A DNA stretch of 64,000 nt from Mytilus galloprovincialis (Eukaryota): NCBI RefSeq assembly GCF_965363235.1, contig NC_134842.1, forward strand, positions 33,976,757 through 34,040,756, given 5' to 3'. Shown here one piece after another: positions 22,201-64,000 of this stretch. The translations under genes and the position numbers were made by a program. Under the pieces are notes generated by a model that did no database searches, was not told where the DNA came from, and saw only the letters and a list, made by a program, of their open reading frames with translations. Position 1 is the first letter of the stretch, and every line of letters starts with the position of its first letter.

Positions 22201-22285
22201 GTCGAAAACGTAGAAAATATTTCATTCATCGACGACTTTGACTGATAATGAACCCGTTTTTTATGCTAGTACTGAGGAACTGACT

Positions 22286-22665: not shown

Positions 22666-22852
22666 AACACTCCCAAAATCAATCCCAACCTTCCTTTTGT
22701 GGTCATAAACCTTGTGTCTCTAAAAGAATACTTGGTAATTGGACGTTTCAAAATCTAAAGAATCATGGGTAATTTCATTGTTCGTACCCCAAAATGAAAA
22801 TAACGTCACGTCATTGGTTGATTTCCATTGTTTATGACATTTTATACGACCG

Positions 22853-24177: not shown

Positions 24178-24688
24178 ATTTACATAGTATTGTCTATAGT
24201 ATCTTCTTCTGCTATGTACTTGGAAAGAATATAAGATATTGCTACCAAATGATCGATGCAAGCTCATTCCTAAAATAGTCATATACCTAAAACTACCGAT
24301 AAAATAGTGTTTTAAAATGCACAACTTCTACCGAGTTTACATAAGTTATAACGTGTAACTGTATCCACAATGGTCGGCTTACTAATCATGGTCAGTCCAT
24401 ACAAAGGAAGATTCCCATTGCAAATAGTGGTTAGGCCATAGTTGTTTTTTTATTTGTTTTGCGTCCGCGTGCGGGTAGGTTTTCTGCCAATTTGTGTCAA
24501 AAACAAACACAAACTTTTTTTTGTTCGTCAGTAGAAAATCCGTATTTTCCGGGTTTTTCCAGCCGTGTTTTTGTGTATTCTTATACTCAAATCTATTTTG
24601 CGCTTTAAATAACAAGTACGCTCCTTATTTAAAGCGTTTAAGCGATCTTGACTTCGATACATGTGAAAGCAGAAATGGCCAGTATAGG

Positions 24689-25136
24689 CCCAAGACCACA
24701 ATTAATGACCCCGCTTTTCGTTGTTCACGAATATAGTTCCCTTTAATTATAGTGTATTTTTTCTTTATTTTTTTTTCTTTCCCTTTCTCATTCATTTCTT
24801 AGCTTTTCTGGGGTGGAAATGAAAGAAGAGAGCTGAAATAAACTTCTGGATGGTTTATTTTAACTGATTTTAATAAGGAAAGAGTGATTAGGCCAGGTGC
24901 AAAAAGGTTATATTTACACTTTTCGGAACATCTCTTGACTTGCCTATAGGGGTATGGATGTGTATTGGCCAAATTTGTATGATGTAAAGATGCAATTTTT
25001 CTGAAAATTGCATATATTTTTGGACTTGTACTGTACATTACACACACAAAAAATTAGACAAAAAGAATAGGCAATTTTTTTTTAATGCGACAAAACGTTA
25101 TAAAGAAATGATAGAGGAATTAATTGTGGTCTCGGG
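24689..25136. mobile_element. First copy of the 448-bp MITE-like element. Its left TIR is exactly the left boundary of the macrosatellite array.
   Basis: Unique sequence ...gaaatggccagtatagg | cccaagaccacaattaatg. The 14 bp to its left (tggccagtatagg) resembles the in-array junction tggcccctaatagg. Confidence 0.65.
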
Positions 25137-26436
25137 CCTAAGAGGTGCATTTCAGCAAATTTTGAATTTATACTTTGACAACTTCTCTGAATGATCTATT
25201 GGTATTGATTTGTCAAACTATATGAGAAGAAATGATTTCCACTTTTATTTGATAGAAATTTGTAAAAAAAGTCACTTTTCAGCTGATATGCCCAAAAAGT
25301 AGCTTTTTCACTTTTTTCAATATTTTTGCAAAAGCAGTATCCTTAATTTTTCTCTGACATTTTTTTTCTGATATTTATTTGTGTTTGTGGTATTTATTTC
25401 ATGTGTTTTACTCATTTGTGAACTCTGAACACAAAGAAAAGTGGATAAAAGCATTAAAAGAGTGCAAAATGTGCTGTTTTAATAGTCTAGGTCTAACGGT
25501 CCGTACGAAGCAAGTGAAATATGAAGTTCTATGCACTTAAAAATTTTATTTCTTTAAACAGATTGCACTGAATCTATATCAAAAGCACTTATTACTGGTT
25601 GTTTAAACTTGTCTGTTTCACAGAATACCTTTATTTTCTTCTGTTGGATGGCTGGTGGTTAAAATTTTGGCATTTTAAGACTGAAATTTCATGCAGATTT
25701 TAAACAGTAAATTGAAAAAACTTTGCATCAGACCATACTGTCTACATATATAGTTAAAAGCAACAGTCTTGTAACATCCAGGCTTCATATTTGATCATAT
25801 CTCAGCAAGGATTTGAGCAAAAAGAAGCATATTTCCATCTCCAATATCATTTATATGCAATTTAATATGGAAATATAGGGAACGGCCCAAATTGACAACT
25901 TGTTATTTTAAGCTTGACATTGCTTAAGACCATGTAAAACTCATGTGTTATGCTCTTTGAAACTTATATTTACATCAAAAGAACATTTATGATATGTAAA
26001 ATGTTTTGTTTTAACTTAACAACTTCAGAAAATTGTTGTAAGTGGAAAATATTACATTTCATATAAGGCCTCACTTCATTTGAAAACCTCTATTTTTTGG
26101 CATAGGCACATATAAAATTAACTTTTGTCAAATTTTTATAAGTCTCATACATTAAGTATGCTATCATGTACTTTGAATAGCTAATATATTATCCATTGAG
26201 ACATTAAAAAGTGCAATTTGGTGTTTTTTGGGGATTTTTGAAGCCAAAATTTGAAAGTTGAAATTGTTCTATTTCAACGTCACAATTCAGCAACCAAAGT
26301 TGAGATATAAAAAATGCCACATTTTCTATAATATATATCATATGGCTTTGAAACTTTGTAAACTGACTCATAATACACTAAGCTTAACTCATGCCAAGTT
26401 TTATTGGAATTGGTCAAGTTTTTGGCCCCTAATAGG

Positions 26437-26884
26437 CCCAAGACCACAATTAATGACCCCGCTTTTCGTTGTTCACGAATATAGTTCCCTTTAATTATAG
26501 TGTATTTTTTCTTTATTTTTTTTTCTTTCCCTTTCTCATTCATTTCTTAGCTTTTCTGGGGTGGAAATGAAAGAAGAGAGCTGAAATAAACTTCTGGATG
26601 GTTTATTTTAACTGATTTTAATAAGGAAAGAGTGATTAGGCCAGGTGCAAAAAGGTTATATTTACACTTTTCGGAACATCTCTTGACTTGCCTATAGGGG
26701 TATGGATGTGTATTGGCCAAATTTGTATGATGTAAAGATGCAATTTTTCTGAAAATTGCATATATTTTTGGACTTGTACTGTACATTACACACACAAAAA
26801 ATTAGACAAAAAGAATAGGCAATTTTTTTTTAATGCGACAAAACGTTATAAAGAAATGATAGAGGAATTAATTGTGGTCTCGGG
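26437..26884. mobile_element. 448-bp MITE-like insertion inside the macrosatellite unit (representative copy). 18-bp TIRs CCCAAGACCACAATTAAT / ATTAATTGTGGTCTCGGG, flanked by a 9-bp TSD CCTAATAGG / CCTAAGAGG. Present in 19 units, with starts at 24689, 26437, 28185, 29933, 31681, 33429, 37761, 39509, 42549, 45589, 47338, 49086, 50834, 52582, 55621, 57369, 59118, 60866 and 62615.
   Basis: Five units (empty sites at 35169-35177, 36461-36469, 41249-41257, 44289-44297, 54321-54329) lack exactly this 448 bp plus one TSD copy. That accounts precisely for the 457-bp difference (1748 vs 1291). Confidence 0.7.
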
Positions 26885-29800
26885 CCTAAGAGGTGCATTT
26901 CAGCAAATTTTGAATTTATACTTTGACAACTTCTCTGAATGATCTATTGGTATTGATTTGTCAAACTATATGAGAAGAAATGATTTCCACTTTTATTTGA
27001 TAGAAATTTGTAAAAAAAGTCACTTTTCAGCTGATATGCCCAAAAAGTAGCTTTTTCACTTTTTTCAATATTTTTGCAAAAGCAGTATCCTTAATTTTTC
27101 TCTGACATTTTTTTTCTGATATTTATTTGTGTTTGTGGTATTTATTTCATGTGTTTTACTCATTTGTGAACTCTGAACACAAAGAAAAGTGGATAAAAGC
27201 ATTAAAAGAGTGCAAAATGTGCTGTTTTAATAGTCTAGGTCTAACGGTCCGTACGAAGCAAGTGAAATATGAAGTTCTATGCACTTAAAAATTTTATTTC
27301 TTTAAACAGATTGCACTGAATCTATATCAAAAGCACTTATTACTGGTTGTTTAAACTTGTCTGTTTCACAGAATACCTTTATTTTCTTCTGTTGGATGGC
27401 TGGTGGTTAAAATTTTGGCATTTTAAGACTGAAATTTCATGCAGATTTTAAACAGTAAATTGAAAAAACTTTGCATCAGACCATACTGTCTACATATATA
27501 GTTAAAAGCAACAGTCTTGTAACATCCAGGCTTCATATTTGATCATATCTCAGCAAGGATTTGAGCAAAAAGAAGCATATTTCCATCTCCAATATCATTT
27601 ATATGCAATTTAATATGGAAATATAGGGAACGGCCCAAATTGACAACTTGTTATTTTAAGCTTGACATTGCTTAAGACCATGTAAAACTCATGTGTTATG
27701 CTCTTTGAAACTTATATTTACATCAAAAGAACATTTATGATATGTAAAATGTTTTGTTTTAACTTAACAACTTCAGAAAATTGTTGTAAGTGGAAAATAT
27801 TACATTTCATATAAGGCCTCACTTCATTTGAAAACCTCTATTTTTTGGCATAGGCACATATAAAATTAACTTTTGTCAAATTTTTATAAGTCTCATACAT
27901 TAAGTATGCTATCATGTACTTTGAATAGCTAATATATTATCCATTGAGACATTAAAAAGTGCAATTTGGTGTTTTTTGGGGATTTTTGAAGCCAAAATTT
28001 GAAAGTTGAAATTGTTCTATTTCAACGTCACAATTCAGCAACCAAAGTTGAGATATAAAAAATGCCACATTTTCTATAATATATATCATATGGCTTTGAA
28101 ACTTTGTAAACTGACTCATAATACACTAAGCTTAACTCATGCCAAGTTTTATTGGAATTGGTCAAGTTTTTGGCCCCTAATAGGCCCAAGACCACAATTA
28201 ATGACCCCGCTTTTCGTTGTTCACGAATATAGTTCCCTTTAATTATAGTGTATTTTTTCTTTATTTTTTTTTCTTTCCCTTTCTCATTCATTTCTTAGCT
28301 TTTCTGGGGTGGAAATGAAAGAAGAGAGCTGAAATAAACTTCTGGATGGTTTATTTTAACTGATTTTAATAAGGAAAGAGTGATTAGGCCAGGTGCAAAA
28401 AGGTTATATTTACACTTTTCGGAACATCTCTTGACTTGCCTATAGGGGTATGGATGTGTATTGGCCAAATTTGTATGATGTAAAGATGCAATTTTTCTGA
28501 AAATTGCATATATTTTTGGACTTGTACTGTACATTACACACACAAAAAATTAGACAAAAAGAATAGGCAATTTTTTTTTAATGCGACAAAACGTTATAAA
28601 GAAATGATAGAGGAATTAATTGTGGTCTCGGGCCTAAGAGGTGCATTTCAGCAAATTTTGAATTTATACTTTGACAACTTCTCTGAATGATCTATTGGTA
28701 TTGATTTGTCAAACTATATGAGAAGAAATGATTTCCACTTTTATTTGATAGAAATTTGTAAAAAAAGTCACTTTTCAGCTGATATGCCCAAAAAGTAGCT
28801 TTTTCACTTTTTTCAATATTTTTGCAAAAGCAGTATCCTTAATTTTTCTCTGACATTTTTTTTCTGATATTTATTTGTGTTTGTGGTATTTATTTCATGT
28901 GTTTTACTCATTTGTGAACTCTGAACACAAAGAAAAGTGGATAAAAGCATTAAAAGAGTGCAAAATGTGCTGTTTTAATAGTCTAGGTCTAACGGTCCGT
29001 ACGAAGCAAGTGAAATATGAAGTTCTATGCACTTAAAAATTTTATTTCTTTAAACAGATTGCACTGAATCTATATCAAAAGCACTTATTACTGGTTGTTT
29101 AAACTTGTCTGTTTCACAGAATACCTTTATTTTCTTCTGTTGGATGGCTGGTGGTTAAAATTTTGGCATTTTAAGACTGAAATTTCATGCAGATTTTAAA
29201 CAGTAAATTGAAAAAACTTTGCATCAGACCATACTGTCTACATATATAGTTAAAAGCAACAGTCTTGTAACATCCAGGCTTCATATTTGATCATATCTCA
29301 GCAAGGATTTGAGCAAAAAGAAGCATATTTCCATCTCCAATATCATTTATATGCAATTTAATATGGAAATATAGGGAACGGCCCAAATTGACAACTTGTT
29401 ATTTTAAGCTTGACATTGCTTAAGACCATGTAAAACTCATGTGTTATGCTCTTTGAAACTTATATTTACATCAAAAGAACATTTATGATATGTAAAATGT
29501 TTTGTTTTAACTTAACAACTTCAGAAAATTGTTGTAAGTGGAAAATATTACATTTCATATAAGGCCTCACTTCATTTGAAAACCTCTATTTTTTGGCATA
29601 GGCACATATAAAATTAACTTTTGTCAAATTTTTATAAGTCTCATACATTAAGTATGCTATCATGTACTTTGAATAGCTAATATATTATCCATTGAGACAT
29701 TAAAAAGTGCAATTTGGTGTTTTTTGGGGATTTTTGAAGCCAAAATTTGAAAGTTGAAATTGTTCTATTTCAACGTCACAATTCAGCAACCAAAGTTGAG

Positions 29801-32800
29801 ATATAAAAAATGCCACATTTTCTATAATATATATCATATGGCTTTGAAACTTTGTAAACTGACTCATAATACACTAAGCTTAACTCATGCCAAGTTTTAT
29901 TGGAATTGGTCAAGTTTTTGGCCCCTAATAGGCCCAAGACCACAATTAATGACCCCGCTTTTCGTTGTTCACGAATATAGTTCCCTTTAATTATAGTGTA
30001 TTTTTTCTTTATTTTTTTTTCTTTCCCTTTCTCATTCATTTCTTAGCTTTTCTGGGGTGGAAATGAAAGAAGAGAGCTGAAATAAACTTCTGGATGGTTT
30101 ATTTTAACTGATTTTAATAAGGAAAGAGTGATTAGGCCAGGTGCAAAAAGGTTATATTTACACTTTTCGGAACATCTCTTGACTTGCCTATAGGGGTATG
30201 GATGTGTATTGGCCAAATTTGTATGATGTAAAGATGCAATTTTTCTGAAAATTGCATATATTTTTGGACTTGTACTGTACATTACACACACAAAAAATTA
30301 GACAAAAAGAATAGGCAATTTTTTTTTAATGCGACAAAACGTTATAAAGAAATGATAGAGGAATTAATTGTGGTCTCGGGCCTAAGAGGTGCATTTCAGC
30401 AAATTTTGAATTTATACTTTGACAACTTCTCTGAATGATCTATTGGTATTGATTTGTCAAACTATATGAGAAGAAATGATTTCCACTTTTATTTGATAGA
30501 AATTTGTAAAAAAAGTCACTTTTCAGCTGATATGCCCAAAAAGTAGCTTTTTCACTTTTTTCAATATTTTTGCAAAAGCAGTATCCTTAATTTTTCTCTG
30601 ACATTTTTTTTCTGATATTTATTTGTGTTTGTGGTATTTATTTCATGTGTTTTACTCATTTGTGAACTCTGAACACAAAGAAAAGTGGATAAAAGCATTA
30701 AAAGAGTGCAAAATGTGCTGTTTTAATAGTCTAGGTCTAACGGTCCGTACGAAGCAAGTGAAATATGAAGTTCTATGCACTTAAAAATTTTATTTCTTTA
30801 AACAGATTGCACTGAATCTATATCAAAAGCACTTATTACTGGTTGTTTAAACTTGTCTGTTTCACAGAATACCTTTATTTTCTTCTGTTGGATGGCTGGT
30901 GGTTAAAATTTTGGCATTTTAAGACTGAAATTTCATGCAGATTTTAAACAGTAAATTGAAAAAACTTTGCATCAGACCATACTGTCTACATATATAGTTA
31001 AAAGCAACAGTCTTGTAACATCCAGGCTTCATATTTGATCATATCTCAGCAAGGATTTGAGCAAAAAGAAGCATATTTCCATCTCCAATATCATTTATAT
31101 GCAATTTAATATGGAAATATAGGGAACGGCCCAAATTGACAACTTGTTATTTTAAGCTTGACATTGCTTAAGACCATGTAAAACTCATGTGTTATGCTCT
31201 TTGAAACTTATATTTACATCAAAAGAACATTTATGATATGTAAAATGTTTTGTTTTAACTTAACAACTTCAGAAAATTGTTGTAAGTGGAAAATATTACA
31301 TTTCATATAAGGCCTCACTTCATTTGAAAACCTCTATTTTTTGGCATAGGCACATATAAAATTAACTTTTGTCAAATTTTTATAAGTCTCATACATTAAG
31401 TATGCTATCATGTACTTTGAATAGCTAATATATTATCCATTGAGACATTAAAAAGTGCAATTTGGTGTTTTTTGGGGATTTTTGAAGCCAAAATTTGAAA
31501 GTTGAAATTGTTCTATTTCAACGTCACAATTCAGCAACCAAAGTTGAGATATAAAAAATGCCACATTTTCTATAATATATATCATATGGCTTTGAAACTT
31601 TGTAAACTGACTCATAATACACTAAGCTTAACTCATGCCAAGTTTTATTGGAATTGGTCAAGTTTTTGGCCCCTAATAGGCCCAAGACCACAATTAATGA
31701 CCCCGCTTTTCGTTGTTCACGAATATAGTTCCCTTTAATTATAGTGTATTTTTTCTTTATTTTTTTTTCTTTCCCTTTCTCATTCATTTCTTAGCTTTTC
31801 TGGGGTGGAAATGAAAGAAGAGAGCTGAAATAAACTTCTGGATGGTTTATTTTAACTGATTTTAATAAGGAAAGAGTGATTAGGCCAGGTGCAAAAAGGT
31901 TATATTTACACTTTTCGGAACATCTCTTGACTTGCCTATAGGGGTATGGATGTGTATTGGCCAAATTTGTATGATGTAAAGATGCAATTTTTCTGAAAAT
32001 TGCATATATTTTTGGACTTGTACTGTACATTACACACACAAAAAATTAGACAAAAAGAATAGGCAATTTTTTTTTAATGCGACAAAACGTTATAAAGAAA
32101 TGATAGAGGAATTAATTGTGGTCTCGGGCCTAAGAGGTGCATTTCAGCAAATTTTGAATTTATACTTTGACAACTTCTCTGAATGATCTATTGGTATTGA
32201 TTTGTCAAACTATATGAGAAGAAATGATTTCCACTTTTATTTGATAGAAATTTGTAAAAAAAGTCACTTTTCAGCTGATATGCCCAAAAAGTAGCTTTTT
32301 CACTTTTTTCAATATTTTTGCAAAAGCAGTATCCTTAATTTTTCTCTGACATTTTTTTTCTGATATTTATTTGTGTTTGTGGTATTTATTTCATGTGTTT
32401 TACTCATTTGTGAACTCTGAACACAAAGAAAAGTGGATAAAAGCATTAAAAGAGTGCAAAATGTGCTGTTTTAATAGTCTAGGTCTAACGGTCCGTACGA
32501 AGCAAGTGAAATATGAAGTTCTATGCACTTAAAAATTTTATTTCTTTAAACAGATTGCACTGAATCTATATCAAAAGCACTTATTACTGGTTGTTTAAAC
32601 TTGTCTGTTTCACAGAATACCTTTATTTTCTTCTGTTGGATGGCTGGTGGTTAAAATTTTGGCATTTTAAGACTGAAATTTCATGCAGATTTTAAACAGT
32701 AAATTGAAAAAACTTTGCATCAGACCATACTGTCTACATATATAGTTAAAAGCAACAGTCTTGTAACATCCAGGCTTCATATTTGATCATATCTCAGCAA

Positions 32801-35800
32801 GGATTTGAGCAAAAAGAAGCATATTTCCATCTCCAATATCATTTATATGCAATTTAATATGGAAATATAGGGAACGGCCCAAATTGACAACTTGTTATTT
32901 TAAGCTTGACATTGCTTAAGACCATGTAAAACTCATGTGTTATGCTCTTTGAAACTTATATTTACATCAAAAGAACATTTATGATATGTAAAATGTTTTG
33001 TTTTAACTTAACAACTTCAGAAAATTGTTGTAAGTGGAAAATATTACATTTCATATAAGGCCTCACTTCATTTGAAAACCTCTATTTTTTGGCATAGGCA
33101 CATATAAAATTAACTTTTGTCAAATTTTTATAAGTCTCATACATTAAGTATGCTATCATGTACTTTGAATAGCTAATATATTATCCATTGAGACATTAAA
33201 AAGTGCAATTTGGTGTTTTTTGGGGATTTTTGAAGCCAAAATTTGAAAGTTGAAATTGTTCTATTTCAACGTCACAATTCAGCAACCAAAGTTGAGATAT
33301 AAAAAATGCCACATTTTCTATAATATATATCATATGGCTTTGAAACTTTGTAAACTGACTCATAATACACTAAGCTTAACTCATGCCAAGTTTTATTGGA
33401 ATTGGTCAAGTTTTTGGCCCCTAATAGGCCCAAGACCACAATTAATGACCCCGCTTTTCGTTGTTCACGAATATAGTTCCCTTTAATTATAGTGTATTTT
33501 TTCTTTATTTTTTTTTCTTTCCCTTTCTCATTCATTTCTTAGCTTTTCTGGGGTGGAAATGAAAGAAGAGAGCTGAAATAAACTTCTGGATGGTTTATTT
33601 TAACTGATTTTAATAAGGAAAGAGTGATTAGGCCAGGTGCAAAAAGGTTATATTTACACTTTTCGGAACATCTCTTGACTTGCCTATAGGGGTATGGATG
33701 TGTATTGGCCAAATTTGTATGATGTAAAGATGCAATTTTTCTGAAAATTGCATATATTTTTGGACTTGTACTGTACATTACACACACAAAAAATTAGACA
33801 AAAAGAATAGGCAATTTTTTTTTAATGCGACAAAACGTTATAAAGAAATGATAGAGGAATTAATTGTGGTCTCGGGCCTAAGAGGTGCATTTCAGCAAAT
33901 TTTGAATTTATACTTTGACAACTTCTCTGAATGATCTATTGGTATTGATTTGTCAAACTATATGAGAAGAAATGATTTCCACTTTTATTTGATAGAAATT
34001 TGTAAAAAAAAGTCACTTTTCAGCTGATATGCCCAAAAAGTAGCTTTTTCACTTTTTTCAATATTTTTGCAAAAGCAGTATCCTTAATTTTTCTCTGACA
34101 TTTTTTTTCTGATATTTATTTGTGTTTGTGGTATTTATTTCATGTGTTTTACTCATTTGTGAACTCTGAACACAAAGAAAAGTGGATAAAAGCATTAAAA
34201 GAGTGCAAAATGTGCTGTTTTAATAGTCTAGGTCTAACGGTCCGTACGAAGCAAGTGAAATATGAAGTTCTATGCACTTAAAAATTTTATTTCTTTAAAC
34301 AGATTGCACTGAATCTATATCAAAAGCACTTATTACTGGTTGTTTAAACTTGTCTGTTTCACAGAATACCTTTATTTTCTTCTGTTGGATGGCTGGTGGT
34401 TAAAATTTTGGCATTTTAAGACTGAAATTTCATGCAGATTTTAAACAGTAAATTGAAAAAACTTTGCATCAGACCATACTGTCTACATATATAGTTAAAA
34501 GCAACAGTCTTGTAACATCCAGGCTTCATATTTGATCATATCTCAGCAAGGATTTGAGCAAAAAGAAGCATATTTCCATCTCCAATATCATTTATATGCA
34601 ATTTAATATGGAAATATAGGGAACGGCCCAAATTGACAACTTGTTATTTTAAGCTTGACATTGCTTAAGACCATGTAAAACTCATGTGTTATGCTCTTTG
34701 AAACTTATATTTACATCAAAAGAACATTTATGATATGTAAAATGTTTTGTTTTAACTTAACAACTTCAGAAAATTGTTGTAAGTGGAAAATATTACATTT
34801 CATATAAGGCCTCACTTCATTTGAAAACCTCTATTTTTTGGCATAGGCACATATAAAATTAACTTTTGTCAAATTTTTATAAGTCTCATACATTAAGTAT
34901 GCTATCATGTACTTTGAATAGCTAATATATTATCCATTGAGACATTAAAAAGTGCAATTTGGTGTTTTTTGGGGATTTTTGAAGCCAAAATTTGAAAGTT
35001 GAAATTGTTCTATTTCAACGTCACAATTCAGCAACCAAAGTTGAGATATAAAAAATGCCACATTTTCTATAATATATATCATATGGCTTTGAAACTTTGT
35101 AAACTGACTCATAATACACTAAGCTTAACTCATGCCAAGTTTTATTGGAATTGGTCAAGTTTTTGGCCCCTAATAGGTGCATTTCAGCAAATTTTGAATT
35201 TATACTTTGACAACTTCTCTGAATGATCTATTGGTATTGATTTGTCAAACTATATGAGAAGAAATGATTTCCACTTTTATTTGATAGAAATTTGTAAAAA
35301 AAAGTCACTTTTCAGCTGATATGCCCAAAAAGTAGCTTTTTCACTTTTTTCAATATTTTTGCAAAAGCAGTATCCTTAATTTTTCTCTGACATTTTTTTT
35401 CTGATATTTATTTGTGTTTGTGGTATTTATTTCATGTGTTTTACTCATTTGTGAACTCTGAACACAAAGAAAAGTGGATAAAAGCATTAAAAGAGTGCAA
35501 AATGTGCTGTTTTAATAGTCTAGGTCTAACGGTCCGTACGAAGCAAGTGAAATATGAAGTTCTATGCACTTAAAAATTTTATTTCTTTAAACAGATTGCA
35601 CTGAATCTATATCAAAAGCACTTATTACTGGTTGTTTAAACTTGTCTGTTTCACAGAATACCTTTATTTTCTTCTGTTGGATGGCTGGTGGTTAAAATTT
35701 TGGCATTTTAAGACTGAAATTTCATGCAGATTTTAAACAGTAAATTGAAAAAACTTTGCATCAGACCATACTGTCTACATATATAGTTAAAAGCAACAGT

Positions 35801-53800: not shown

Positions 53801-56800
53801 TTAAGCTTGACATTGCTTAAGACCATGTAAAACTCATGTGTTATGCTCTTTGAAACTTATATTTACATCAAAAGAACATTTATGATATGTAAAATGTTTT
53901 GTTTTAACTTAACAACTTCAGAAAATTGTTGTAAGTGGAAAATATTACATTTCATATAAGGCCTCACTTCATTTGAAAACCTCTATTTTTTGGCATAGGC
54001 ACATATAAAATTAACTTTTGTCAAATTTTTATAAGTCTCATACATTAAGTATGCTATCATGTACTTTGAATAGCTAATATATTATCCATTGAGACATTAA
54101 AAAGTGCAATTTGGTGTTTTTTGGGGATTTTTGAAGCCAAAATTTGAAAGTTGAAATTGTTCTATTTCAACGTCACAATTCAGCAACCAAAGTTGAGATA
54201 TAAAAAATGCCACATTTTCTATAATATATATCATATGGCTTTGAAACTTTGTAAACTGACTCATAATACACTAAGCTTAACTCATGCCAAGTTTTATTGG
54301 AATTGGTCAAGTTTTTGGCCCCTAAGAGGTGCATTTCAGCAAATTTTGAATTTATACTTTGACAACTTCTCTGAATGATCTATTGGTATTGATTTGTCAA
54401 ACTATATGAGAAGAAATGATTTCCACTTTTATTTGATAGAAATTTGTAAAAAAAGTCACTTTTCAGCTGATATGCCCAAAAAGTAGCTTTTTCACTTTTT
54501 TCAATATTTTTGCAAAAGCAGTATCCTTAATTTTTCTCTGACATTTTTTTTCTGATATTTATTTGTGTTTGTGGTATTTATTTCATGTGTTTTACTCATT
54601 TGTGAACTCTGAACACAAAGAAAAGTGGATAAAAGCATTAAAAGAGTGCAAAATGTGCTGTTTTAATAGTCTAGGTCTAACGGTCCGTACGAAGCAAGTG
54701 AAATATGAAGTTCTATGCACTTAAAAATTTTATTTCTTTAAACAGATTGCACTGAATCTATATCAAAAGCACTTATTACTGGTTGTTTAAACTTGTCTGT
54801 TTCACAGAATACCTTTATTTTCTTCTGTTGGATGGCTGGTGGTTAAAATTTTGGCATTTTAAGACTGAAATTTCATGCAGATTTTAAACAGTAAATTGAA
54901 AAAACTTTGCATCAGACCATACTGTCTACATATATAGTTAAAAGCAACAGTCTTGTAACATCCAGGCTTCATATTTGATCATATCTCAGCAAGGATTTGA
55001 GCAAAAAGAAGCATATTTCCATCTCCAATATCATTTATATGCAATTTAATATGGAAATATAGGGAACGGCCCAAATTGACAACTTGTTATTTTAAGCTTG
55101 ACATTGCTTAAGACCATGTAAAACTCATGTGTTATGCTCTTTGAAACTTATATTTACATCAAAAGAACATTTATGATATGTAAAATGTTTTGTTTTAACT
55201 TAACAACTTCAGAAAATTGTTGTAAGTGGAAAATATTACATTTCATATAAGGCCTCACTTCATTTGAAAACCTCTATTTTTTGGCATAGGCACATATAAA
55301 ATTAACTTTTGTCAAATTTTTATAAGTCTCATACATTAAGTATGCTATCATGTACTTTGAATAGCTAATATATTATCCATTGAGACATTAAAAAGTGCAA
55401 TTTGGTGTTTTTTGGGGATTTTTGAAGCCAAAATTTGAAAGTTGAAATTGTTCTATTTCAACGTCACAATTCAGCAACCAAAGTTGAGATATAAAAAATG
55501 CCACATTTTCTATAATATATATCATATGGCTTTGAAACTTTGTAAACTGACTCATAATACACTAAGCTTAACTCATGCCAAGTTTTATTGGAATTGGTCA
55601 AGTTTTTGGCCCCTAATAGGCCCAAGACCACAATTAATGACCCCGCTTTTCGTTGTTCACGAATATAGTTCCCTTTAATTATAGTGTATTTTTTCTTTAT
55701 TTTTTTTTCTTTCCCTTTCTCATTCATTTCTTAGCTTTTCTGGGGTGGAAATGAAAGAAGAGAGCTGAAATAAACTTCTGGATGGTTTATTTTAACTGAT
55801 TTTAATAAGGAAAGAGTGATTAGGCCAGGTGCAAAAAGGTTATATTTACACTTTTCGGAACATCTCTTGACTTGCCTATAGGGGTATGGATGTGTATTGG
55901 CCAAATTTGTATGATGTAAAGATGCAATTTTTCTGAAAATTGCATATATTTTTGGACTTGTACTGTACATTACACACACAAAAAATTAGACAAAAAGAAT
56001 AGGCAATTTTTTTTTAATGCGACAAAACGTTATAAAGAAATGATAGAGGAATTAATTGTGGTCTCGGGCCTAAGAGGTGCATTTCAGCAAATTTTGAATT
56101 TATACTTTGACAACTTCTCTGAATGATCTATTGGTATTGATTTGTCAAACTATATGAGAAGAAATGATTTCCACTTTTATTTGATAGAAATTTGTAAAAA
56201 AAGTCACTTTTCAGCTGATATGCCCAAAAAGTAGCTTTTTCACTTTTTTCAATATTTTTGCAAAAGCAGTATCCTTAATTTTTCTCTGACATTTTTTTTC
56301 TGATATTTATTTGTGTTTGTGGTATTTATTTCATGTGTTTTACTCATTTGTGAACTCTGAACACAAAGAAAAGTGGATAAAAGCATTAAAAGAGTGCAAA
56401 ATGTGCTGTTTTAATAGTCTAGGTCTAACGGTCCGTACGAAGCAAGTGAAATATGAAGTTCTATGCACTTAAAAATTTTATTTCTTTAAACAGATTGCAC
56501 TGAATCTATATCAAAAGCACTTATTACTGGTTGTTTAAACTTGTCTGTTTCACAGAATACCTTTATTTTCTTCTGTTGGATGGCTGGTGGTTAAAATTTT
56601 GGCATTTTAAGACTGAAATTTCATGCAGATTTTAAACAGTAAATTGAAAAAACTTTGCATCAGACCATACTGTCTACATATATAGTTAAAAGCAACAGTC
56701 TTGTAACATCCAGGCTTCATATTTGATCATATCTCAGCAAGGATTTGAGCAAAAAGAAGCATATTTCCATCTCCAATATCATTTATATGCAATTTAATAT

Positions 56801-59800
56801 GGAAATATAGGGAACGGCCCAAATTGACAACTTGTTATTTTAAGCTTGACATTGCTTAAGACCATGTAAAACTCATGTGTTATGCTCTTTGAAACTTATA
56901 TTTACATCAAAAGAACATTTATGATATGTAAAATGTTTTGTTTTAACTTAACAACTTCAGAAAATTGTTGTAAGTGGAAAATATTACATTTCATATAAGG
57001 CCTCACTTCATTTGAAAACCTCTATTTTTTGGCATAGGCACATATAAAATTAACTTTTGTCAAATTTTTATAAGTCTCATACATTAAGTATGCTATCATG
57101 TACTTTGAATAGCTAATATATTATCCATTGAGACATTAAAAAGTGCAATTTGGTGTTTTTTGGGGATTTTTGAAGCCAAAATTTGAAAGTTGAAATTGTT
57201 CTATTTCAACGTCACAATTCAGCAACCAAAGTTGAGATATAAAAAATGCCACATTTTCTATAATATATATCATATGGCTTTGAAACTTTGTAAACTGACT
57301 CATAATACACTAAGCTTAACTCATGCCAAGTTTTATTGGAATTGGTCAAGTTTTTGGCCCCTAATAGGCCCAAGACCACAATTAATGACCCCGCTTTTCG
57401 TTGTTCACGAATATAGTTCCCTTTAATTATAGTGTATTTTTTCTTTATTTTTTTTTCTTTCCCTTTCTCATTCATTTCTTAGCTTTTCTGGGGTGGAAAT
57501 GAAAGAAGAGAGCTGAAATAAACTTCTGGATGGTTTATTTTAACTGATTTTAATAAGGAAAGAGTGATTAGGCCAGGTGCAAAAAGGTTATATTTACACT
57601 TTTCGGAACATCTCTTGACTTGCCTATAGGGGTATGGATGTGTATTGGCCAAATTTGTATGATGTAAAGATGCAATTTTTCTGAAAATTGCATATATTTT
57701 TGGACTTGTACTGTACATTACACACACAAAAAATTAGACAAAAAGAATAGGCAATTTTTTTTTAATGCGACAAAACGTTATAAAGAAATGATAGAGGAAT
57801 TAATTGTGGTCTCGGGCCTAAGAGGTGCATTTCAGCAAATTTTGAATTTATACTTTGACAACTTCTCTGAATGATCTATTGGTATTGATTTGTCAAACTA
57901 TATGAGAAGAAATGATTTCCACTTTTATTTGATAGAAATTTGTAAAAAAAGTCACTTTTCAGCTGATATGCCCAAAAAGTAGCTTTTTCACTTTTTTCAA
58001 TATTTTTGCAAAAGCAGTATCCTTAATTTTTCTCTGACATTTTTTTTCTGATATTTATTTGTGTTTGTGGTATTTATTTCATGTGTTTTACTCATTTGTG
58101 AACTCTGAACACAAAGAAAAGTGGATAAAAGCATTAAAAGAGTGCAAAATGTGCTGTTTTAATAGTCTAGGTCTAACGGTCAGTACGAAGCAAGTGAAAT
58201 ATGAAGTTCTATGCACTTAAAAATTTTATTTCTTTAAACAGATTGCACTGAATCTATATCAAAAGCACTTATTACTGGTTGTTTAAACTTGTCTGTTTCA
58301 CAGAATACCTTTATTTTCTTCTGTTGGATGGCTGGTGGTTAAAATTTTGGCATTTTAAGACTGAAATTTCATGCAGATTTTAAACAGTAAATTGAAAAAA
58401 ACTTTGCATCAGACCATACTGTCTACATATATAGTTAAAAGCAACAGTCTTGTAACATCCAGGCTTCATATTTGATCATATCTCAGCAAGGATTTGAGCA
58501 AAAAGAAGCATATTTCCATCTCCAATATCATTTATATGCAATTTAATATGGAAATATAGGGAACGGCCCAAATTGACAACTTGTTATTTTAAGCTTGACA
58601 TTGCTTAAGACCATGTAAAACTCATGTGTTATGCTCTTTGAAACTTATATTTACATCAAAAGAACATTTATGATATGTAAAATGTTTTGTTTTAACTTAA
58701 CAACTTCAGAAAATTGTTGTAAGTGGAAAATATTACATTTCATATAAGGCCTCACTTCATTTGAAAACCTCTATTTTTTGGCATAGGCACATATAAAATT
58801 AACTTTTGTCAAATTTTTATAAGTCTCATACATTAAGTATGCTATCATGTACTTTGAATAGCTAATATATTATCCATTGAGACATTAAAAAGTGCAATTT
58901 GGTGTTTTTTGGGGATTTTTGAAGCCAAAATTTGAAAGTTGAAATTGTTCTATTTCAACGTCACAATTCAGCAACCAAAGTTGAGATATAAAAAATGCCA
59001 CATTTTCTATAATATATATCATATGGCTTTGAAACTTTGTAAACTGACTCATAATACACTAAGCTTAACTCATGCCAAGTTTTATTGGAATTGGTCAAGT
59101 TTTTGGCCCCTAATAGGCCCAAGACCACAATTAATGACCCCGCTTTTCGTTGTTCACGAATATAGTTCCCTTTAATTATAGTGTATTTTTTCTTTATTTT
59201 TTTTTCTTTCCCTTTCTCATTCATTTCTTAGCTTTTCTGGGGTGGAAATGAAAGAAGAGAGCTGAAATAAACTTCTGGATGGTTTATTTTAACTGATTTT
59301 AATAAGGAAAGAGTGATTAGGCCAGGTGCAAAAAGGTTATATTTACACTTTTCGGAACATCTCTTGACTTGCCTATAGGGGTATGGATGTGTATTGGCCA
59401 AATTTGTATGATGTAAAGATGCAATTTTTCTGAAAATTGCATATATTTTTGGACTTGTACTGTACATTACACACACAAAAAATTAGACAAAAAGAATAGG
59501 CAATTTTTTTTTAATGCGACAAAACGTTATAAAGAAATGATAGAGGAATTAATTGTGGTCTCGGGCCTAAGAGGTGCATTTCAGCAAATTTTGAATTTAT
59601 ACTTTGACAACTTCTCTGAATGATCTATTGGTATTGATTTGTCAAACTATATGAGAAGAAATGATTTCCACTTTTATTTGATAGAAATTTGTAAAAAAAG
59701 TCACTTTTCAGCTGATATGCCCAAAAAGTAGCTTTTTCACTTTTTTCAATATTTTTGCAAAAGCAGTATCCTTAATTTTTCTCTGACATTTTTTTTCTGA

Positions 59801-62800
59801 TATTTATTTGTGTTTGTGGTATTTATTTCATGTGTTTTACTCATTTGTGAACTCTGAACACAAAGAAAAGTGGATAAAAGCATTAAAAGAGTGCAAAATG
59901 TGCTGTTTTAATAGTCTAGGTCTAACGGTCCGTACGAAGCAAGTGAAATATGAAGTTCTATGCACTTAAAAATTTTATTTCTTTAAACAGATTGCACTGA
60001 ATCTATATCAAAAGCACTTATTACTGGTTGTTTAAACTTGTCTGTTTCACAGAATACCTTTATTTTCTTCTGTTGGATGGCTGGTGGTTAAAATTTTGGC
60101 ATTTTAAGACTGAAATTTCATGCAGATTTTAAACAGTAAATTGAAAAAACTTTGCATCAGACCATACTGTCTACATATATAGTTAAAAGCAACAGTCTTG
60201 TAACATCCAGGCTTCATATTTGATCATATCTCAGCAAGGATTTGAGCAAAAAGAAGCATATTTCCATCTCCAATATCATTTATATGCAATTTAATATGGA
60301 AATATAGGGAACGGCCCAAATTGACAACTTGTTATTTTAAGCTTGACATTGCTTAAGACCATGTAAAACTCATGTGTTATGCTCTTTGAAACTTATATTT
60401 ACATCAAAAGAACATTTATGATATGTAAAATGTTTTGTTTTAACTTAACAACTTCAGAAAATTGTTGTAAGTGGAAAATATTACATTTCATATAAGGCCT
60501 CACTTCATTTGAAAACCTCTATTTTTTGGCATAGGCACATATAAAATTAACTTTTGTCAAATTTTTATAAGTCTCATACATTAAGTATGCTATCATGTAC
60601 TTTGAATAGCTAATATATTATCCATTGAGACATTAAAAAGTGCAATTTGGTGTTTTTTGGGGATTTTTGAAGCCAAAATTTGAAAGTTGAAATTGTTCTA
60701 TTTCAACGTCACAATTCAGCAACCAAAGTTGAGATATAAAAAATGCCACATTTTCTATAATATATATCATATGGCTTTGAAACTTTGTAAACTGACTCAT
60801 AATACACTAAGCTTAACTCATGCCAAGTTTTATTGGAATTGGTCAAGTTTTTGGCCCCTAATAGGCCCAAGACCACAATTAATGACCCCGCTTTTCGTTG
60901 TTCACGAATATAGTTCCCTTTAATTATAGTGTATTTTTTCTTTATTTTTTTTTCTTTCCCTTTCTCATTCATTTCTTAGCTTTTCTGGGGTGGAAATGAA
61001 AGAAGAGAGCTGAAATAAACTTCTGGATGGTTTATTTTAACTGATTTTAATAAGGAAAGAGTGATTAGGCCAGGTGCAAAAAGGTTATATTTACACTTTT
61101 CGGAACATCTCTTGACTTGCCTATAGGGGTATGGATGTGTATTGGCCAAATTTGTATGATGTAAAGATGCAATTTTTCTGAAAATTGCATATATTTTTGG
61201 ACTTGTACTGTACATTACACACACAAAAAATTAGACAAAAAGAATAGGCAATTTTTTTTTAATGCGACAAAACGTTATAAAGAAATGATAGAGGAATTAA
61301 TTGTGGTCTCGGGCCTAAGAGGTGCATTTCAGCAAATTTTGAATTTATACTTTGACAACTTCTCTGAATGATCTATTGGTATTGATTTGTCAAACTATAT
61401 GAGAAGAAATGATTTCCACTTTTATTTGATAGAAATTTGTAAAAAAAGTCACTTTTCAGCTGATATGCCCAAAAAGTAGCTTTTTCACTTTTTTCAATAT
61501 TTTTGCAAAAGCAGTATCCTTAATTTTTCTCTGACATTTTTTTTCTGATATTTATTTGTGTTTGTGGTATTTATTTCATGTGTTTTACTCATTTGTGAAC
61601 TCTGAACACAAAGAAAAGTGGATAAAAGCATTAAAAGAGTGCAAAATGTGCTGTTTTAATAGTCTAGGTCTAACGGTCAGTACGAAGCAAGTGAAATATG
61701 AAGTTCTATGCACTTAAAAATTTTATTTCTTTAAACAGATTGCACTGAATCTATATCAAAAGCACTTATTACTGGTTGTTTAAACTTGTCTGTTTCACAG
61801 AATACCTTTATTTTCTTCTGTTGGATGGCTGGTGGTTAAAATTTTGGCATTTTAAGACTGAAATTTCATGCAGATTTTAAACAGTAAATTGAAAAAAACT
61901 TTGCATCAGACCATACTGTCTACATATATAGTTAAAAGCAACAGTCTTGTAACATCCAGGCTTCATATTTGATCATATCTCAGCAAGGATTTGAGCAAAA
62001 AGAAGCATATTTCCATCTCCAATATCATTTATATGCAATTTAATATGGAAATATAGGGAACGGCCCAAATTGACAACTTGTTATTTTAAGCTTGACATTG
62101 CTTAAGACCATGTAAAACTCATGTGTTATGCTCTTTGAAACTTATATTTACATCAAAAGAACATTTATGATATGTAAAATGTTTTGTTTTAACTTAACAA
62201 CTTCAGAAAATTGTTGTAAGTGGAAAATATTACATTTCATATAAGGCCTCACTTCATTTGAAAACCTCTATTTTTTGGCATAGGCACATATAAAATTAAC
62301 TTTTGTCAAATTTTTATAAGTCTCATACATTAAGTATGCTATCATGTACTTTGAATAGCTAATATATTATCCATTGAGACATTAAAAAGTGCAATTTGGT
62401 GTTTTTTGGGGATTTTTGAAGCCAAAATTTGAAAGTTGAAATTGTTCTATTTCAACGTCACAATTCAGCAACCAAAGTTGAGATATAAAAAATGCCACAT
62501 TTTCTATAATATATATCATATGGCTTTGAAACTTTGTAAACTGACTCATAATACACTAAGCTTAACTCATGCCAAGTTTTATTGGAATTGGTCAAGTTTT
62601 TGGCCCCTAATAGGCCCAAGACCACAATTAATGACCCCGCTTTTCGTTGTTCACGAATATAGTTCCCTTTAATTATAGTGTATTTTTTCTTTATTTTTTT
62701 TTCTTTCCCTTTCTCATTCATTTCTTAGCTTTTCTGGGGTGGAAATGAAAGAAGAGAGCTGAAATAAACTTCTGGATGGTTTATTTTAACTGATTTTAAT

Positions 62801-64000
62801 AAGGAAAGAGTGATTAGGCCAGGTGCAAAAAGGTTATATTTACACTTTTCGGAACATCTCTTGACTTGCCTATAGGGGTATGGATGTGTATTGGCCAAAT
62901 TTGTATGATGTAAAGATGCAATTTTTCTGAAAATTGCATATATTTTTGGACTTGTACTGTACATTACACACACAAAAAATTAGACAAAAAGAATAGGCAA
63001 TTTTTTTTTAATGCGACAAAACGTTATAAAGAAATGATAGAGGAATTAATTGTGGTCTCGGGCCTAAGAGGTGCATTTCAGCAAATTTTGAATTTATACT
63101 TTGACAACTTCTCTGAATGATCTATTGGTATTGATTTGTCAAACTATATGAGAAGAAATGATTTCCACTTTTATTTGATAGAAATTTGTAAAAAAAAGTC
63201 ACTTTTCAGCTGATATGCCCAAAAAGTAGCTTTTTCACTTTTTTCAATATTTTTGCAAAAGCAGTATCCTTAATTTTTCTCTGACATTTTTTTTCTGATA
63301 TTTATTTGTGTTTGTGGTATTTATTTCATGTGTTTTACTCATTTGTGAACTCTGAACACAAAGAAAAGTGGATAAAGCATTAAAAGAGTGCAAAATGTGC
63401 TGTTTTAATAGTCTAGGTCTAACGGTCCGTACGAAGCAAGTGAAATATGAAGTTCTATGCACTTAAAAATTTTATTTCTTTAAACAGATTGCACTGAATC
63501 TATATCAAAAGCACTTATTACTGGTTGTTTAAACTTGTCTGTTTCACAGAATACCTTTATTTTCTTCTGTTGGATGGCTGGTGGTTAAAATTTTGGCATT
63601 TTAAGACTGAAATTTCATGCAGATTTTAAACAGTAAATTGAAAAAACTTTGCATCAGACCATACTGTCTACATATATAGTTAAAAGCAACAGTCTTGTAA
63701 CATCCAGGCTTCATATTTGATCATATCTCAGCAAGGATTTGAGCAAAAAGAAGCATATTTCCATCTCCAATATCATTTATATGCAATTTAATATGGAAAT
63801 ATAGGGAACGGCCCAAATTGACAACTTGTTATTTTAAGCTTGACATTGCTTAAGACCATGTAAAACTCATGTGTTATGCTCTTTGAAACTTATATTTACA
63901 TCAAAAGAACATTTATGATATGTAAAATGTTTTGTTTTAACTTAACAACTTCAGAAAATTGTTGTAAGTGGAAAATATTACATTTCATATAAGGCCTCAC

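What the first reader, a model, noticed from the sequence alone, without database searches (positions are those of the whole stretch)
24689..64000. Macrosatellite of at least 39 kb (>=22.5 units of ~1.75 kb), essentially identical, 6.8 kb downstream of MVP
A 1748-bp unit repeated head-to-tail at near-100% identity for the entire remaining 39 kb of the window, still continuing at the edge, is extraordinary for a gene-adjacent region. Units differ only by homopolymer length (1748 vs 1749), a handful of point variants and the presence or absence of a 457-bp segment. Such identity implies very recent amplification or ongoing homogenisation (unequal crossing-over, gene conversion, or rolling-circle replication). 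The unit has no credible coding capacity (only low-complexity 75-87-aa ORFs on both strands). Its function, if any, is more likely structural or epigenetic (heterochromatin or boundary, in the manner of D4Z4/DXZ4 macrosatellites) or transcriptional (lncRNA).
Basis: seen in the sequence. Interest (0 to 1): 0.78.

Follow-up and report, generated by a model that had tools for sequence, protein, structure and literature searches.

The report
Transposon-derived 1.75-kb macrosatellite in mussel
The 39-kb block of near-identical 1.75-kb repeats downstream of the mussel MVP gene is real, but it is a tandemly amplified, non-coding relative of a DNA transposon rather than a unique structure, and the same repeat occurs in tandem in other mussel DNA samples.

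Summary
From 24685 to the window edge there are 24 head-to-tail units: 19 long (1748/1749 bp) and 5 short (1291/1292 bp). They are 99.91% identical, with only 8 variable sites.

The interpretation needs revising. The window is a Mytilus genome. Each unit has two parts:
- a 452-bp module bounded by 20-nt terminal inverted repeats (GGCCCAAGACCACAATTAAT)
- a 1296-bp non-coding segment

The "457-bp present/absent segment" is this module plus 5 nt.

In four M. edulis and M. coruscus loci and several metagenome contigs, two direct copies of the module flank a 3.95-kb segment. That segment encodes a Mutator-like transposase and a His-Me-finger protein. The composite has 4-bp target-site duplications.

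The window's array starts exactly at a module's outer end. Ten metagenome contigs are circular permutations of the same 1.75-kb unit (about 93-96% identity), so the tandem arrangement is independent of this assembly.

Most likely mechanism: unequal recombination between the direct modules of a non-autonomous element, followed by continued homogenisation. No RNA gene, ORF homologue or Pfam domain was found. A D4Z4-like function is untested.

This is a new member of a known kind, transposon-derived satellite DNA, which is common in bivalves. Interest is moderate.

The parts
24687..64000 (.). Tandem array of 24 units (19 long, 5 short), cut by the window edge. Each long unit is a 452-bp module plus a 1296-bp internal segment.
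   Evidence: period 1748/1749 and 1291/1292, 99.91% mean pairwise identity.
24683..24686 (.). TATA immediately left of the first module. Candidate 4-bp target-site duplication, with GGGCC|TATA predicted at the unseen right end.
   Evidence: for the sequence. By analogy with the clean 4-bp duplications of related composites: TTTT in L012 and ATAA in L023. Inference, not verified.
24687..25138 (+). First copy of the 452-bp module. It is repeated at the start of every long unit, for example 26435-26886.
   Evidence: The module's borders are breakpoints in independent contexts: the array's left edge, the short units, and both the inner and outer junctions of the L005, L011, L012 and L023 composites.
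24687..24706 (+). Left terminal inverted repeat of the module, GGCCCAAGACCACAATTAAT.
   Evidence: The motif gives 38 matches in the window against 0.01 expected.
25119..25138 (-). Right terminal inverted repeat of the module (GGCCCGAGACCACAATTAAT on the minus strand).
25139..26434 (.). First copy of the 1296-bp non-coding internal segment (TAAGAGG...CCCCTAATA).
   Evidence: No ORF homologue, Pfam, Rfam or tRNA hit. No internal sub-repeats. It is 96.3% identical over 1291 bp to L009, where it sits between two modules next to the transposase segment.
35174..37756 (.). Short units 7 and 8 (1292 and 1291 bp). The module is absent and the junction is CCCCTAA|TAGG.
41254..42544 (.). Short unit 11 (1291 bp), junction CCCCTAA|TAGG.
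44294..45584 (.). Short unit 13 (1291 bp), junction CCCCTAA|TAGG.
54326..55616 (.). Short unit 19 (1291 bp), junction CCCCTAA|GAGG.
17529..17861 (+). Context: ORF holding the last coding exon of MVP, which ends 6.8 kb upstream of the array.
   Evidence: The exon is 98% identical in amino acids to M. edulis MVP CAG2185675.1.

Best explanation
The array is a transposon-derived macrosatellite in a Mytilus genome.

**The unit.** Its unit is the repeating part of a non-autonomous DNA transposon. It consists of a 452-bp module bounded by 20-nt terminal inverted repeats, followed by a 1.3-kb non-coding internal segment.

**The transposon family.** In autonomous-looking members, two copies of the module in direct orientation flank a 3.95-kb segment. 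That segment encodes a Mutator-like transposase and a His-Me-finger protein. The whole composite inserts with a 4-bp target-site duplication.

**How the array formed (inferred).** Because the two modules are direct repeats, they behave like LTRs. Unequal recombination between them turns module-core-module into (module-core)n-module. Once the 1.75-kb homology exists, unequal sister-chromatid exchange and gene conversion expand and homogenise the array.

**Short units (inferred).** The five short units arose by loss of the module. The loss occurred through recombination, or excision followed by microhomology repair, between the imperfect 12-13-nt direct repeats at its two borders (GGCCCCTAATAGG and GGGCC-TAAGAGG). 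Local duplication of the short units followed.

**Function.** There is no sign of a cellular function. It is most likely selfish or neutral DNA.

**Shown versus inferred.** Shown: the anatomy, the transposon relationship, the tandem state in other samples, and the identity gradient. Inferred: the recombination steps.
For: **Anatomy**
- The array has 24 units at 99.91% identity.
- The module has 20-nt terminal inverted repeats.

**Link to a transposon**
- The module flanks a Mutator-like transposase (PF20700, E 5e-65) and a His-Me protein (PF05551) on both sides, in the same orientation. This holds in L005 and in four genome loci: L011 and L023 (M. edulis), L012 and L024 (M. coruscus).
- The two modules of one composite are 99.8% (L012) and 97.3% (L011) identical.
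- Clean 4-bp target-site duplications were found: TTTT (L012) and ATAA (L023).

**Array boundaries**
- The window's array begins exactly at a module's outer end. L017 does the same with a different flank. The chance of a boundary falling within +/-3 bp of that end is about 0.3%.

**The core elsewhere**
- The window's core is present at 96.3% identity in L009, between two modules and next to the transposase segment.
- The 45-60 nt of the core next to each module are weakly similar to the same positions of the transposase-bearing segment (9/2000 and 18/2000 shuffles reach the observed score).

**Tandem state in other samples**
- Ten metagenome contigs are circular permutations of the whole unit.
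- Terminal overlaps give a period of 1747/1748: L015 and L016 (1888 = 1747+141), L014 and L022.
- L013 and L020 run past one unit with non-identical overlap.

**Concerted evolution**
- Cores are 92-96% identical and modules 87-97% identical between the window and other samples, against 99.9% within the array.

**Published mechanism**
- Unequal or non-allelic recombination between repeated parts of transposons generating tandem arrays is described in the literature (PMC12628747).
Against: - The right end of the array lies beyond the window, so the prediction that it ends in a module is unverified.
- L009, which links core, module and transposase segment, is a short-read metagenome contig that crosses a 460-bp repeat. 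It could be chimeric.
- The similarity between the core edges and the transposase-segment edges is weak.
- No solo modules and no simple module-core-module single copy were seen. About 85 kb of Mytilus flanks contained none.
- Rolling-circle or circular-DNA routes give the same final structure and cannot be separated from unequal exchange with these data.
- The 4-bp target-site duplication rests on two clean cases.
- Copy number in the window depends on the assembly.
Confidence: 0.7

Rival explanations
1. Locus-specific functional macrosatellite in the manner of D4Z4/DXZ4. The array acts as a heterochromatin or boundary element, or as a lncRNA source, next to MVP.
For: The unit is kb-scale, very homogeneous and close to a gene. 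The unit length and junctions are conserved at about 93-96% identity across Mytilus samples.
Against: - No ORF, RNA family or domain was found in the unit.
- Substitutions in the only gene-caller ORF are nearly all non-synonymous.
- Conservation is fairly even along the unit, with no sharply conserved block.
- The unit is built from a transposon module.
- The same unit sits next to a different flank in L017.
- Chromatin state and transcription cannot be tested here.
Confidence: 0.08
2. Amplification through a circular intermediate. A 1.75-kb circle (module plus core) pops out by recombination between two modules, or is made by the transposase. It is then copied by rolling-circle replication and re-integrates as a concatemer. 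Composites of the form module-X-module are then cut out of such concatemers.
For: - Units 1-5 are identical.
- Four metagenome contigs close on themselves with a 1747/1748 period. That fits circles as well as arrays.
- The terminal modules of composites are nearly identical (99.8% in L012), as expected if they are cut from a homogeneous concatemer.
- Rolling-circle routes to satellites are discussed in PMC12628747.
Against: - Variants shared by neighbouring units (17/18, 6/7, 7/8) and two-unit periodicities (3040, 3497) look like stepwise unequal exchange.
- L013 and L020 show adjacent units differing by 3.5% and 15%, which a fresh concatemer would not show.
- There is no direct evidence of circles.
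Confidence: 0.13
3. Assembly artefact. The locus really holds one or a few units and the assembler over-expanded it.
For: Near-identical repeats are hard to assemble. Four of the eight variable sites are homopolymer lengths, which are typical read errors.
Against: - The irregular order of long and short units and the linked variants (C820A with +A1033 in units 10, 21, 23) are not what a looped assembly gives.
- Independent short-read assemblies from at least nine ENA assemblies recover the same unit as tandem or circular contigs.
Confidence: 0.05
4. A pre-existing 1.29-kb satellite into which a Tourist-like (PIF/Harbinger) MITE inserted once and then spread by homogenisation. Under this reading the short units are the ancestral form.
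For: The 457-bp segment is flanked by TAA...TAA. It has GGCC-type inverted ends like mPing. Short unit 19 looks like a clean empty site, CCCC-TAA-GAGG. Tourist MITEs excise precisely and have extended target preference (PMC2836001 and PMC4561436).
Against: - The array starts with the module, not with core sequence.
- The same 'TAA' and 'GAGG' flanks recur in unrelated composites, so they are internal sequence and not duplications.
- Outer duplications are 4 bp, TTTT and ATAA, not TWA.
- The partner transposase is Mutator-like, not PIF/Harbinger.
- Module-core alternation is found in every other sample.
Confidence: 0.04

Closest known systems
Tandem arrays of LTR/TRIM retroelements that share one LTR between neighbours (e.g. 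Cassandra arrays, PMC7215508; mechanism in PMC12628747, Fig. 2g)
   Same: Two direct terminal repeats flank an internal region. Unequal recombination between them gives (repeat-internal)n-repeat, which is then expanded and homogenised. The array edge coincides with the outer end of a terminal repeat.
   Different: Here the terminal repeats are 452-bp modules, each bounded by 20-nt inverted repeats. The autonomous relative encodes a DDE Mutator-like transposase, not reverse transcriptase. The target-site duplication is 4 bp. No PBS or PPT was looked for, and none is expected.
Transposon-related satellite DNAs of bivalves (oyster satellitomes, PMC11136912; Helentron-borne Cg170, PMC7492417; DTC84 MITE of Donax, PMC3879986)
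   Same: These are bivalve tandem repeats whose monomers derive from, or travel with, mobile elements. Monomers up to 8.6 kb are reported. Arrays are scattered in gene-rich regions.
   Different: Most of those cases are roughly 160-bp central repeats of Helitron/Helentron elements or MITEs. Here the monomer is a whole terminal module plus the internal segment of a transposon from a Mutator-like-transposase family.
Human macrosatellites D4Z4 and DXZ4
   Same: kb-scale unit, tens of copies, high identity between units, and a location next to genes.
   Different: There is no embedded ORF (D4Z4 carries DUX4). The origin is a transposon. The unit occurs in more than one genomic context. No chromatin or transcription data are available.
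Tourist-like MITEs such as mPing (PIF/Harbinger)
   Same: About 450 bp, non-coding, with GGCC... inverted ends. TAA lies next to the ends inside the array, and the element can be cleanly absent.
   Different: The target-site-duplication test fails (4 bp at the outer ends). The TAA flanks are conserved internal sequence. The associated transposase is Mutator-like.
Mutator-like elements (MULEs)
   Same: Related autonomous copies encode a PF20700 Mutator-like transposase. MULEs are present in all molluscs surveyed (PMC10294476).
   Different: Classical MULEs have long inverted terminal repeats and 8-11-bp target-site duplications (from general knowledge). Here the inverted repeat is 20 nt, the long terminal repeats are direct, and the duplication is 4 bp. 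The window itself holds no transposase.
Bacterial composite transposons (IS-cargo-IS)
   Same: Two copies of a small element bounded by inverted repeats bracket a segment, and the outermost ends mobilise the whole.
   Different: Here the flanking modules are non-coding and the transposase lies in the bracketed segment. The host is a eukaryote.

Membership tests
Macrosatellite (descriptive class) | Head-to-tail repeats with a unit of about 1 kb or more, in many copies at one locus | tested here: met
   24 units of 1.29-1.75 kb over 39.3 kb.
Macrosatellite of the D4Z4/DXZ4 type | An embedded conserved ORF or a conserved functional block in each unit | tested here: not met
   No homologue, Pfam or Rfam hit. 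Substitutions in the called ORF are non-synonymous and conservation is even along the unit.
Macrosatellite of the D4Z4/DXZ4 type | Heterochromatin marks, CTCF binding or regulated transcription, and copy-number polymorphism | not testable with these tools
   This needs methylation, ChIP, RNA-seq and population long-read data.
Transposon-derived satellite DNA | The monomer contains a recognisable part of a mobile element, with that element's termini | tested here: met
   The 452-bp module has 20-nt inverted ends. The same module forms the ends of transposase-bearing composites in M. edulis and M. coruscus.
Transposon-derived satellite DNA | The array boundary coincides with an element terminus | tested here: met
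   The left edge is at 24687 in the window, and a second left edge is seen in L017. The right edge is not visible.
Transposon-derived satellite DNA | Concerted evolution: units more alike within an array than between genomes | tested here: met
   99.91% within the array. Against other Mytilus samples, cores are 92-96% and modules 87-97% identical.
Tourist-like MITE (PIF/Harbinger) | 3-bp TWA target-site duplication | tested here: not met
   The outer duplications of the composites are 4 bp (TTTT, ATAA). The TAA next to the module recurs with its neighbours in unrelated composites, so it is internal sequence.
Tourist-like MITE (PIF/Harbinger) | Autonomous partner with a PIF/Harbinger transposase plus a Myb-like ORF1 | tested here: not met
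   The partner ORFs are a Mutator-like transposase (PF20700) and a His-Me zinc-loop protein (PF05551).
Mutator-like elements | Mutator-type DDE transposase | tested here: met
   PF20700 at E 5e-65, nearly full length, in L005. Homologues at 87% identity and at 96% (over 69% of the query) exist in M. edulis and M. coruscus. None is in the window.
Mutator-like elements | 8-11-bp target-site duplication and long terminal inverted repeats (general knowledge of the superfamily) | tested here: not met
   4-bp duplications in two clean cases. The inverted repeat is only about 20-22 nt. The 450-bp terminal repeats are direct.
LTR/TRIM retroelement arrays | Reverse-transcription origin (RT/integrase relatives, PBS/PPT) | tested here: not met
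   The autonomous relatives encode a DDE transposase and no RT. PBS and PPT were not searched for specifically. The resemblance is in how the array forms, not in ancestry.
Tandem non-coding RNA gene cluster (5S, snRNA, SL RNA, tRNA) | A known RNA gene in each unit | tested here: not met
   Rfam at E<=1 found nothing in 20000-28200. No tRNA was found in the window.

The most novel reading that the evidence does not exclude
This may be a DNA-transposon family that alternates between two states. In the dispersed state it is a composite whose two ends are LTR-like direct copies of a small module bounded by inverted repeats. In the array state it is a homogenised tandem array of module plus internal segment.

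Under this reading the array, or a circle derived from it, is itself the donor. The transposase cuts new module-X-module copies out of it, using the outer inverted repeats of successive modules. That would explain three observations:
- the near-identity of the two modules of each composite
- the swapping of module types on the same core
- the array abutting a transposase-bearing unit in L009

In short, it would be a satellite that transposes, driven by a Mutator-like transposase with an atypical 4-bp target-site duplication.
Probability: 0.2. Interest if true: 0.65.

Novelty: new member of a known kind. Interest (0 to 1): 0.4.

Why it matters
How satellite DNA is born from mobile elements is mostly reconstructed from decayed remains. 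In this one genus all the stages are still sequence-intact:
- an apparently intact transposase-bearing composite
- a non-autonomous relative
- a highly homogenised 39-kb-plus array
- less homogeneous arrays elsewhere

That makes the steps directly testable: recombination between terminal modules, module loss, module swapping and possible circular intermediates.

There are also practical consequences. The array is an assembly and annotation hazard next to MVP. The module and core should be added to mussel repeat libraries.

It does not by itself indicate a new cellular function.

Tried and rejected
1. **Tourist/PIF-Harbinger MITE with a TAA duplication.** This was my first reading, based on the GGCC ends and TAA flanks. 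I rejected it after finding the outer junctions of the composites (4-bp duplications) and the Mutator-like partner.
2. **9-bp (MULE-like) duplication CCTAA(T/G)AGG.** It fits the window, but the same 9-mers recur in L005, L011 and L012, so they are internal sequence.
3. **MITE inserted into an older 1.29-kb satellite.** Rejected because the array starts with the module and module-core alternation is universal.
4. **Coding or RNA function.** Searches found nothing: no exact ORF matches, no homologues, no Pfam hit above threshold, no Rfam or tRNA hit.
5. **Remnants of the transposase or His-Me protein in the unit or upstream.** tblastn was negative.
6. **Sub-repeat structure in the core, or core homology to the 3.95-kb segment.** None by blastn. 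Only weak edge similarity was found.
7. **Copies of the unit or module in window 1-24684.** None.
8. **TIR 20-mer scans.** The viral contig scan found none. The bacterial genome scan found 3 single hits, against about 2 expected by chance from 596 Gb (my arithmetic), so these are noise.
9. **Literature search for the PIF target consensus.** Nothing was found, so that recollection is not used as evidence.
10. **Exact look-up of the window's junction ORF.** It is not on record. Its 1-aa variant from L009 was found and opened the metagenome contigs.

Full report
**1. Observation**

Distances between repeated 20-mers are dominated by four values: 1748 (20,639 k-mers), 1749 (8,102), 1291 (4,409) and 1292 (1,940). 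They begin at 24684 and are still running at the window edge. Anchors inside the unit give 24 copies.

Cutting at the conserved ...GGCCCCTAA end gives 19 long units (1748/1749 bp, the last truncated at 64000). It also gives 5 short units (1291/1292 bp) at 35174, 36466, 41254, 44294 and 54326.

A MAFFT alignment shows only 8 variable sites and 99.91% mean pairwise identity. Units 1-5 are identical. Some variants are shared by neighbouring units (A386T in units 17/18, +A581 in 6/7). Others are shared by non-neighbours (C820A together with +A1033 in units 10, 21 and 23).

MVP exons lie on the + strand and the last one ends at 17861, 6.8 kb upstream of the array.

**2. Organism**

The window's MVP exons are 95-100% identical in amino acids to M. 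edulis MVP CAG2185675.1. The window is a Mytilus genome. The species was not determined.

**3. Anatomy of the unit**

The 457-bp segment that distinguishes long from short units carries 20-nt terminal inverted repeats. They read GGCCCAAGACCACAATTAAT on the left and its complement, with one mismatch, on the right. The motif occurs 38 times in the window against 0.01 expected, always at these positions.

The array's left edge coincides with the left end of the first such module.

Short units read CCCC-TAA-GAGG (unit 19) or CCCC-TAA-TAGG (units 7, 8, 11, 13). Both are what recombination at different points gives within the imperfect direct repeats that border the module, GGCCCCTAATAGG and GGGCC-TAAGAGG.

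Evidence that the rest of the unit (about 1.3 kb) is non-coding:
- No internal sub-repeats.
- No Rfam family and no tRNA.
- No ORF with an exact match or a homologue among 5.8 billion proteins.
- No Pfam domain above threshold.

No copy of the unit or the module lies in the first 24.7 kb of the window.

**4. The module belongs to a transposon**

A scan of metagenome contigs for the 20-mer found one contig, L005. It starts with the last 133 bp of the module region and ends with its first 121 bp, in the same orientation.

The 3.95 kb between them encodes a 667-aa Mutator-like transposase (PF20700, E 5e-65) and a 154-aa His-Me-finger zinc-loop protein (PF05551). This transposase is 87% identical to an M. 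edulis protein and 96% identical (over 69% of the query) to an M. coruscus protein.

In four genome loci the transposase segment is flanked on both sides by the module in direct orientation. The loci are L011 and L023 (M. edulis) and L012 and L024 (M. coruscus). In L023 and L024 one or both flanking modules are internally deleted or truncated. The flanks of L011 and L012 are unrelated.

Outer junctions:

| Locus | Outer junction | Reading |
|---|---|---|
| L012 | TTTT / TTTT | clean 4-bp target-site duplication |
| L023 | ATAA / ATAA | clean 4-bp target-site duplication |
| L011 | AAGT / AAGT | compatible, if its degenerate left tip is allowed for |

The two modules of one composite are 99.8% (L012) and 97.3% (L011) identical.

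So the family's canonical form is module-X-module. It is mobilised through the outermost inverted repeats, and the modules act as LTR-like direct terminal repeats.

The short sequences next to the module inside the window's array (TAATA on the left, TAAGAGG on the right) are the same as in the transposase-bearing composites. The next 45-60 nt are weakly similar as well (9/2000 and 18/2000 shuffles reach the observed score). This fits a non-autonomous derivative whose interior was replaced.

**5. The same unit elsewhere**

L009, a 5.5-kb metagenome contig, holds four parts in order:
- a partial module
- the window's core, full length at 96.3% identity
- a full module
- the transposase segment

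A 50-aa ORF spanning the junction from core end to module start is called in L009. Its 90% cluster sits on 11 ENA contigs: L009 itself and ten of 1.7-2.2 kb. Those ten are circular permutations of the whole 1.75-kb unit, at about 93-96% identity to the window.

| Contig | Length (bp) | Evidence for tandem or circular state |
|---|---|---|
| L015, L016 | 1888 | Exact 141-bp terminal overlap (k = 141), period 1747 |
| L014 | 2031 | 284-bp terminal overlap, period 1747 |
| L022 | 1803 | 55-bp terminal overlap, period 1748 |
| L013 | 2036 | Runs past one unit; overlap differs by 3.5% over 289 nt |
| L020 | 2175 | Runs past one unit; overlap differs by 15% over 426 nt |

The tandem (or circular) state is therefore independent of the window's assembly.

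L017 begins with 28 nt of unrelated flank and then a module start. This is a second left boundary in a different context.

**6. Evolution**

- **Cores.** The cores of most metagenome contigs are 98-99.8% identical to each other and 95-96% identical to the window. L020 is 90-92% identical to all others.
- **Module types.** Modules fall into distinct types:
  - one shared by the window, L022, L017 and L020
  - one in L013-L016 and L021, 84-88% identical to the first
  - types that flank the transposase segments
- **Module exchange.** Nearly identical cores carry different module types, so modules are exchanged between elements.
- **Concerted evolution.** Identity is 99.9% within the array, while cores are 92-96% and modules 87-97% identical to other samples. 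The repeat family is older than the array's uniformity suggests.
- **No coding constraint.** In the one ORF that gene callers pick, 3-5 nucleotide differences give 3-4 amino-acid changes, so it is not under coding constraint.

**7. Mechanism**

The best-supported mechanism is unequal recombination between the direct modules of a non-autonomous module-core-module element. This gives (module-core)n-module. Unequal sister-chromatid exchange and conversion follow, now supported by 1.75 kb of homology.

This is the route described for LTR-sharing tandem retroelements and for non-allelic recombination between paralogous transposon copies (PMC12628747). Neighbour-shared variants and two-unit periodicities (3040 and 3497) fit stepwise exchange. 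Module loss explains the short units.

Rolling-circle or circular-DNA amplification gives the same final structure and cannot be excluded.

No evidence bears on a chromatin or RNA function.

**8. Comparison with known systems**

- The array works like LTR/TRIM tandem arrays, but it is not a retroelement.
- It belongs to the broad, well-documented class of transposon-related bivalve satellites. Monomers in that class reach 8.6 kb, and most oyster satDNAs are transposon-related.
- The module fails the tests for a Tourist/PIF-Harbinger MITE.
- The family shares only the transposase domain with classical MULEs. The target-site duplication is 4 bp, the inverted repeats are short, and the terminal modules are direct.
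- Whether the family is already in Repbase or Dfam could not be checked.

**9. Verdict**

It is a new member of a known kind and of moderate interest.

The most novel reading not excluded is that the array or a circular form serves as the donor for new composite copies.

**10. Limits**

- The right end of the array is outside the window.
- L009 may be chimeric across the module.
- The target-site-duplication length rests on two clean cases.
- Genome-wide copy number and locations in Mytilus could not be surveyed.
- Copy number here depends on the assembly.

Noticed in passing
window 8518-10481, 10927-12707 and 22729-24178: Three copies of a composite repeat carrying internal tandem repeats of about 161, 126-135 and 35 bp. 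Two lie in an MVP intron and one lies 0.5 kb upstream of the array. They look like a tandem-repeat-bearing mobile element of the kind described in bivalves. Some monomers contain a GGGCCC site.
   Followed up: partly
window 16094-16683 and 19696-20285: A 590-nt inverted repeat, 91% complementary, brackets the last two MVP coding exons and the 3' end of the gene. It is probably two copies of a dispersed element in opposite orientation. Such an arrangement could promote inversion or hairpin formation.
   Followed up: no
window 22284-22367 and 22579-22662: A perfect 84-nt inverted repeat with a 211-nt spacer.
   Followed up: no
window 15406-15465 and 15478-15537: A 60-nt stretch overlapping the end of an MVP exon is followed 72 nt downstream (start to start) by a 78%-identical copy. 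This may be a decayed exon duplicate.
   Followed up: no
L005 402-866 and 1000-3003; L009, L010, L011, L012, L023, L024: The gene pair of a Mutator-like transposase (PF20700, 667 aa, intact) and a His-Me-finger zinc-loop protein (PF05551) is conserved in M. edulis, M. coruscus and several metagenomes. More distant relatives occur in Haliotis, Pinctada, Mizuhopecten, Lottia and annelids/nemerteans. The role of the His-Me protein is unknown.
   Followed up: partly
L013-L022, L009, L011, L012 (identity matrices): Nearly identical cores (about 99%) are joined to module types that differ by about 13%. The module next to the transposase segment in L009 is of the transposase-flanking type. Modules therefore appear to be swapped between elements.
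   Followed up: partly
L024 around 13423-13435; L021 1910-1963; L018 1-74: Three irregular junctions were seen:
- In L024 the left module is preceded by GTAAGA, an inner-type junction. This suggests a further unit to its left, and its right module is truncated.
- In L021 module nt ~32 is joined to core nt ~975.
- In L018 the first 74 nt differ from the unit.
   Followed up: no
window 24669-24684 versus 25148-25156: The unique left flank GCAGAAATG is complementary to CATTTCAGC at the start of the core. This extends the module's inverted repeat to 38 nt at 79% (I1). L005 does not share it, so it may be chance.
   Followed up: partly
window 24601-24636: A perfect 12-nt palindrome arm pair (CGCTTTAAATAA / TTATTTAAAGCG) lies 50 nt upstream of the array start (I18).
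   Followed up: no
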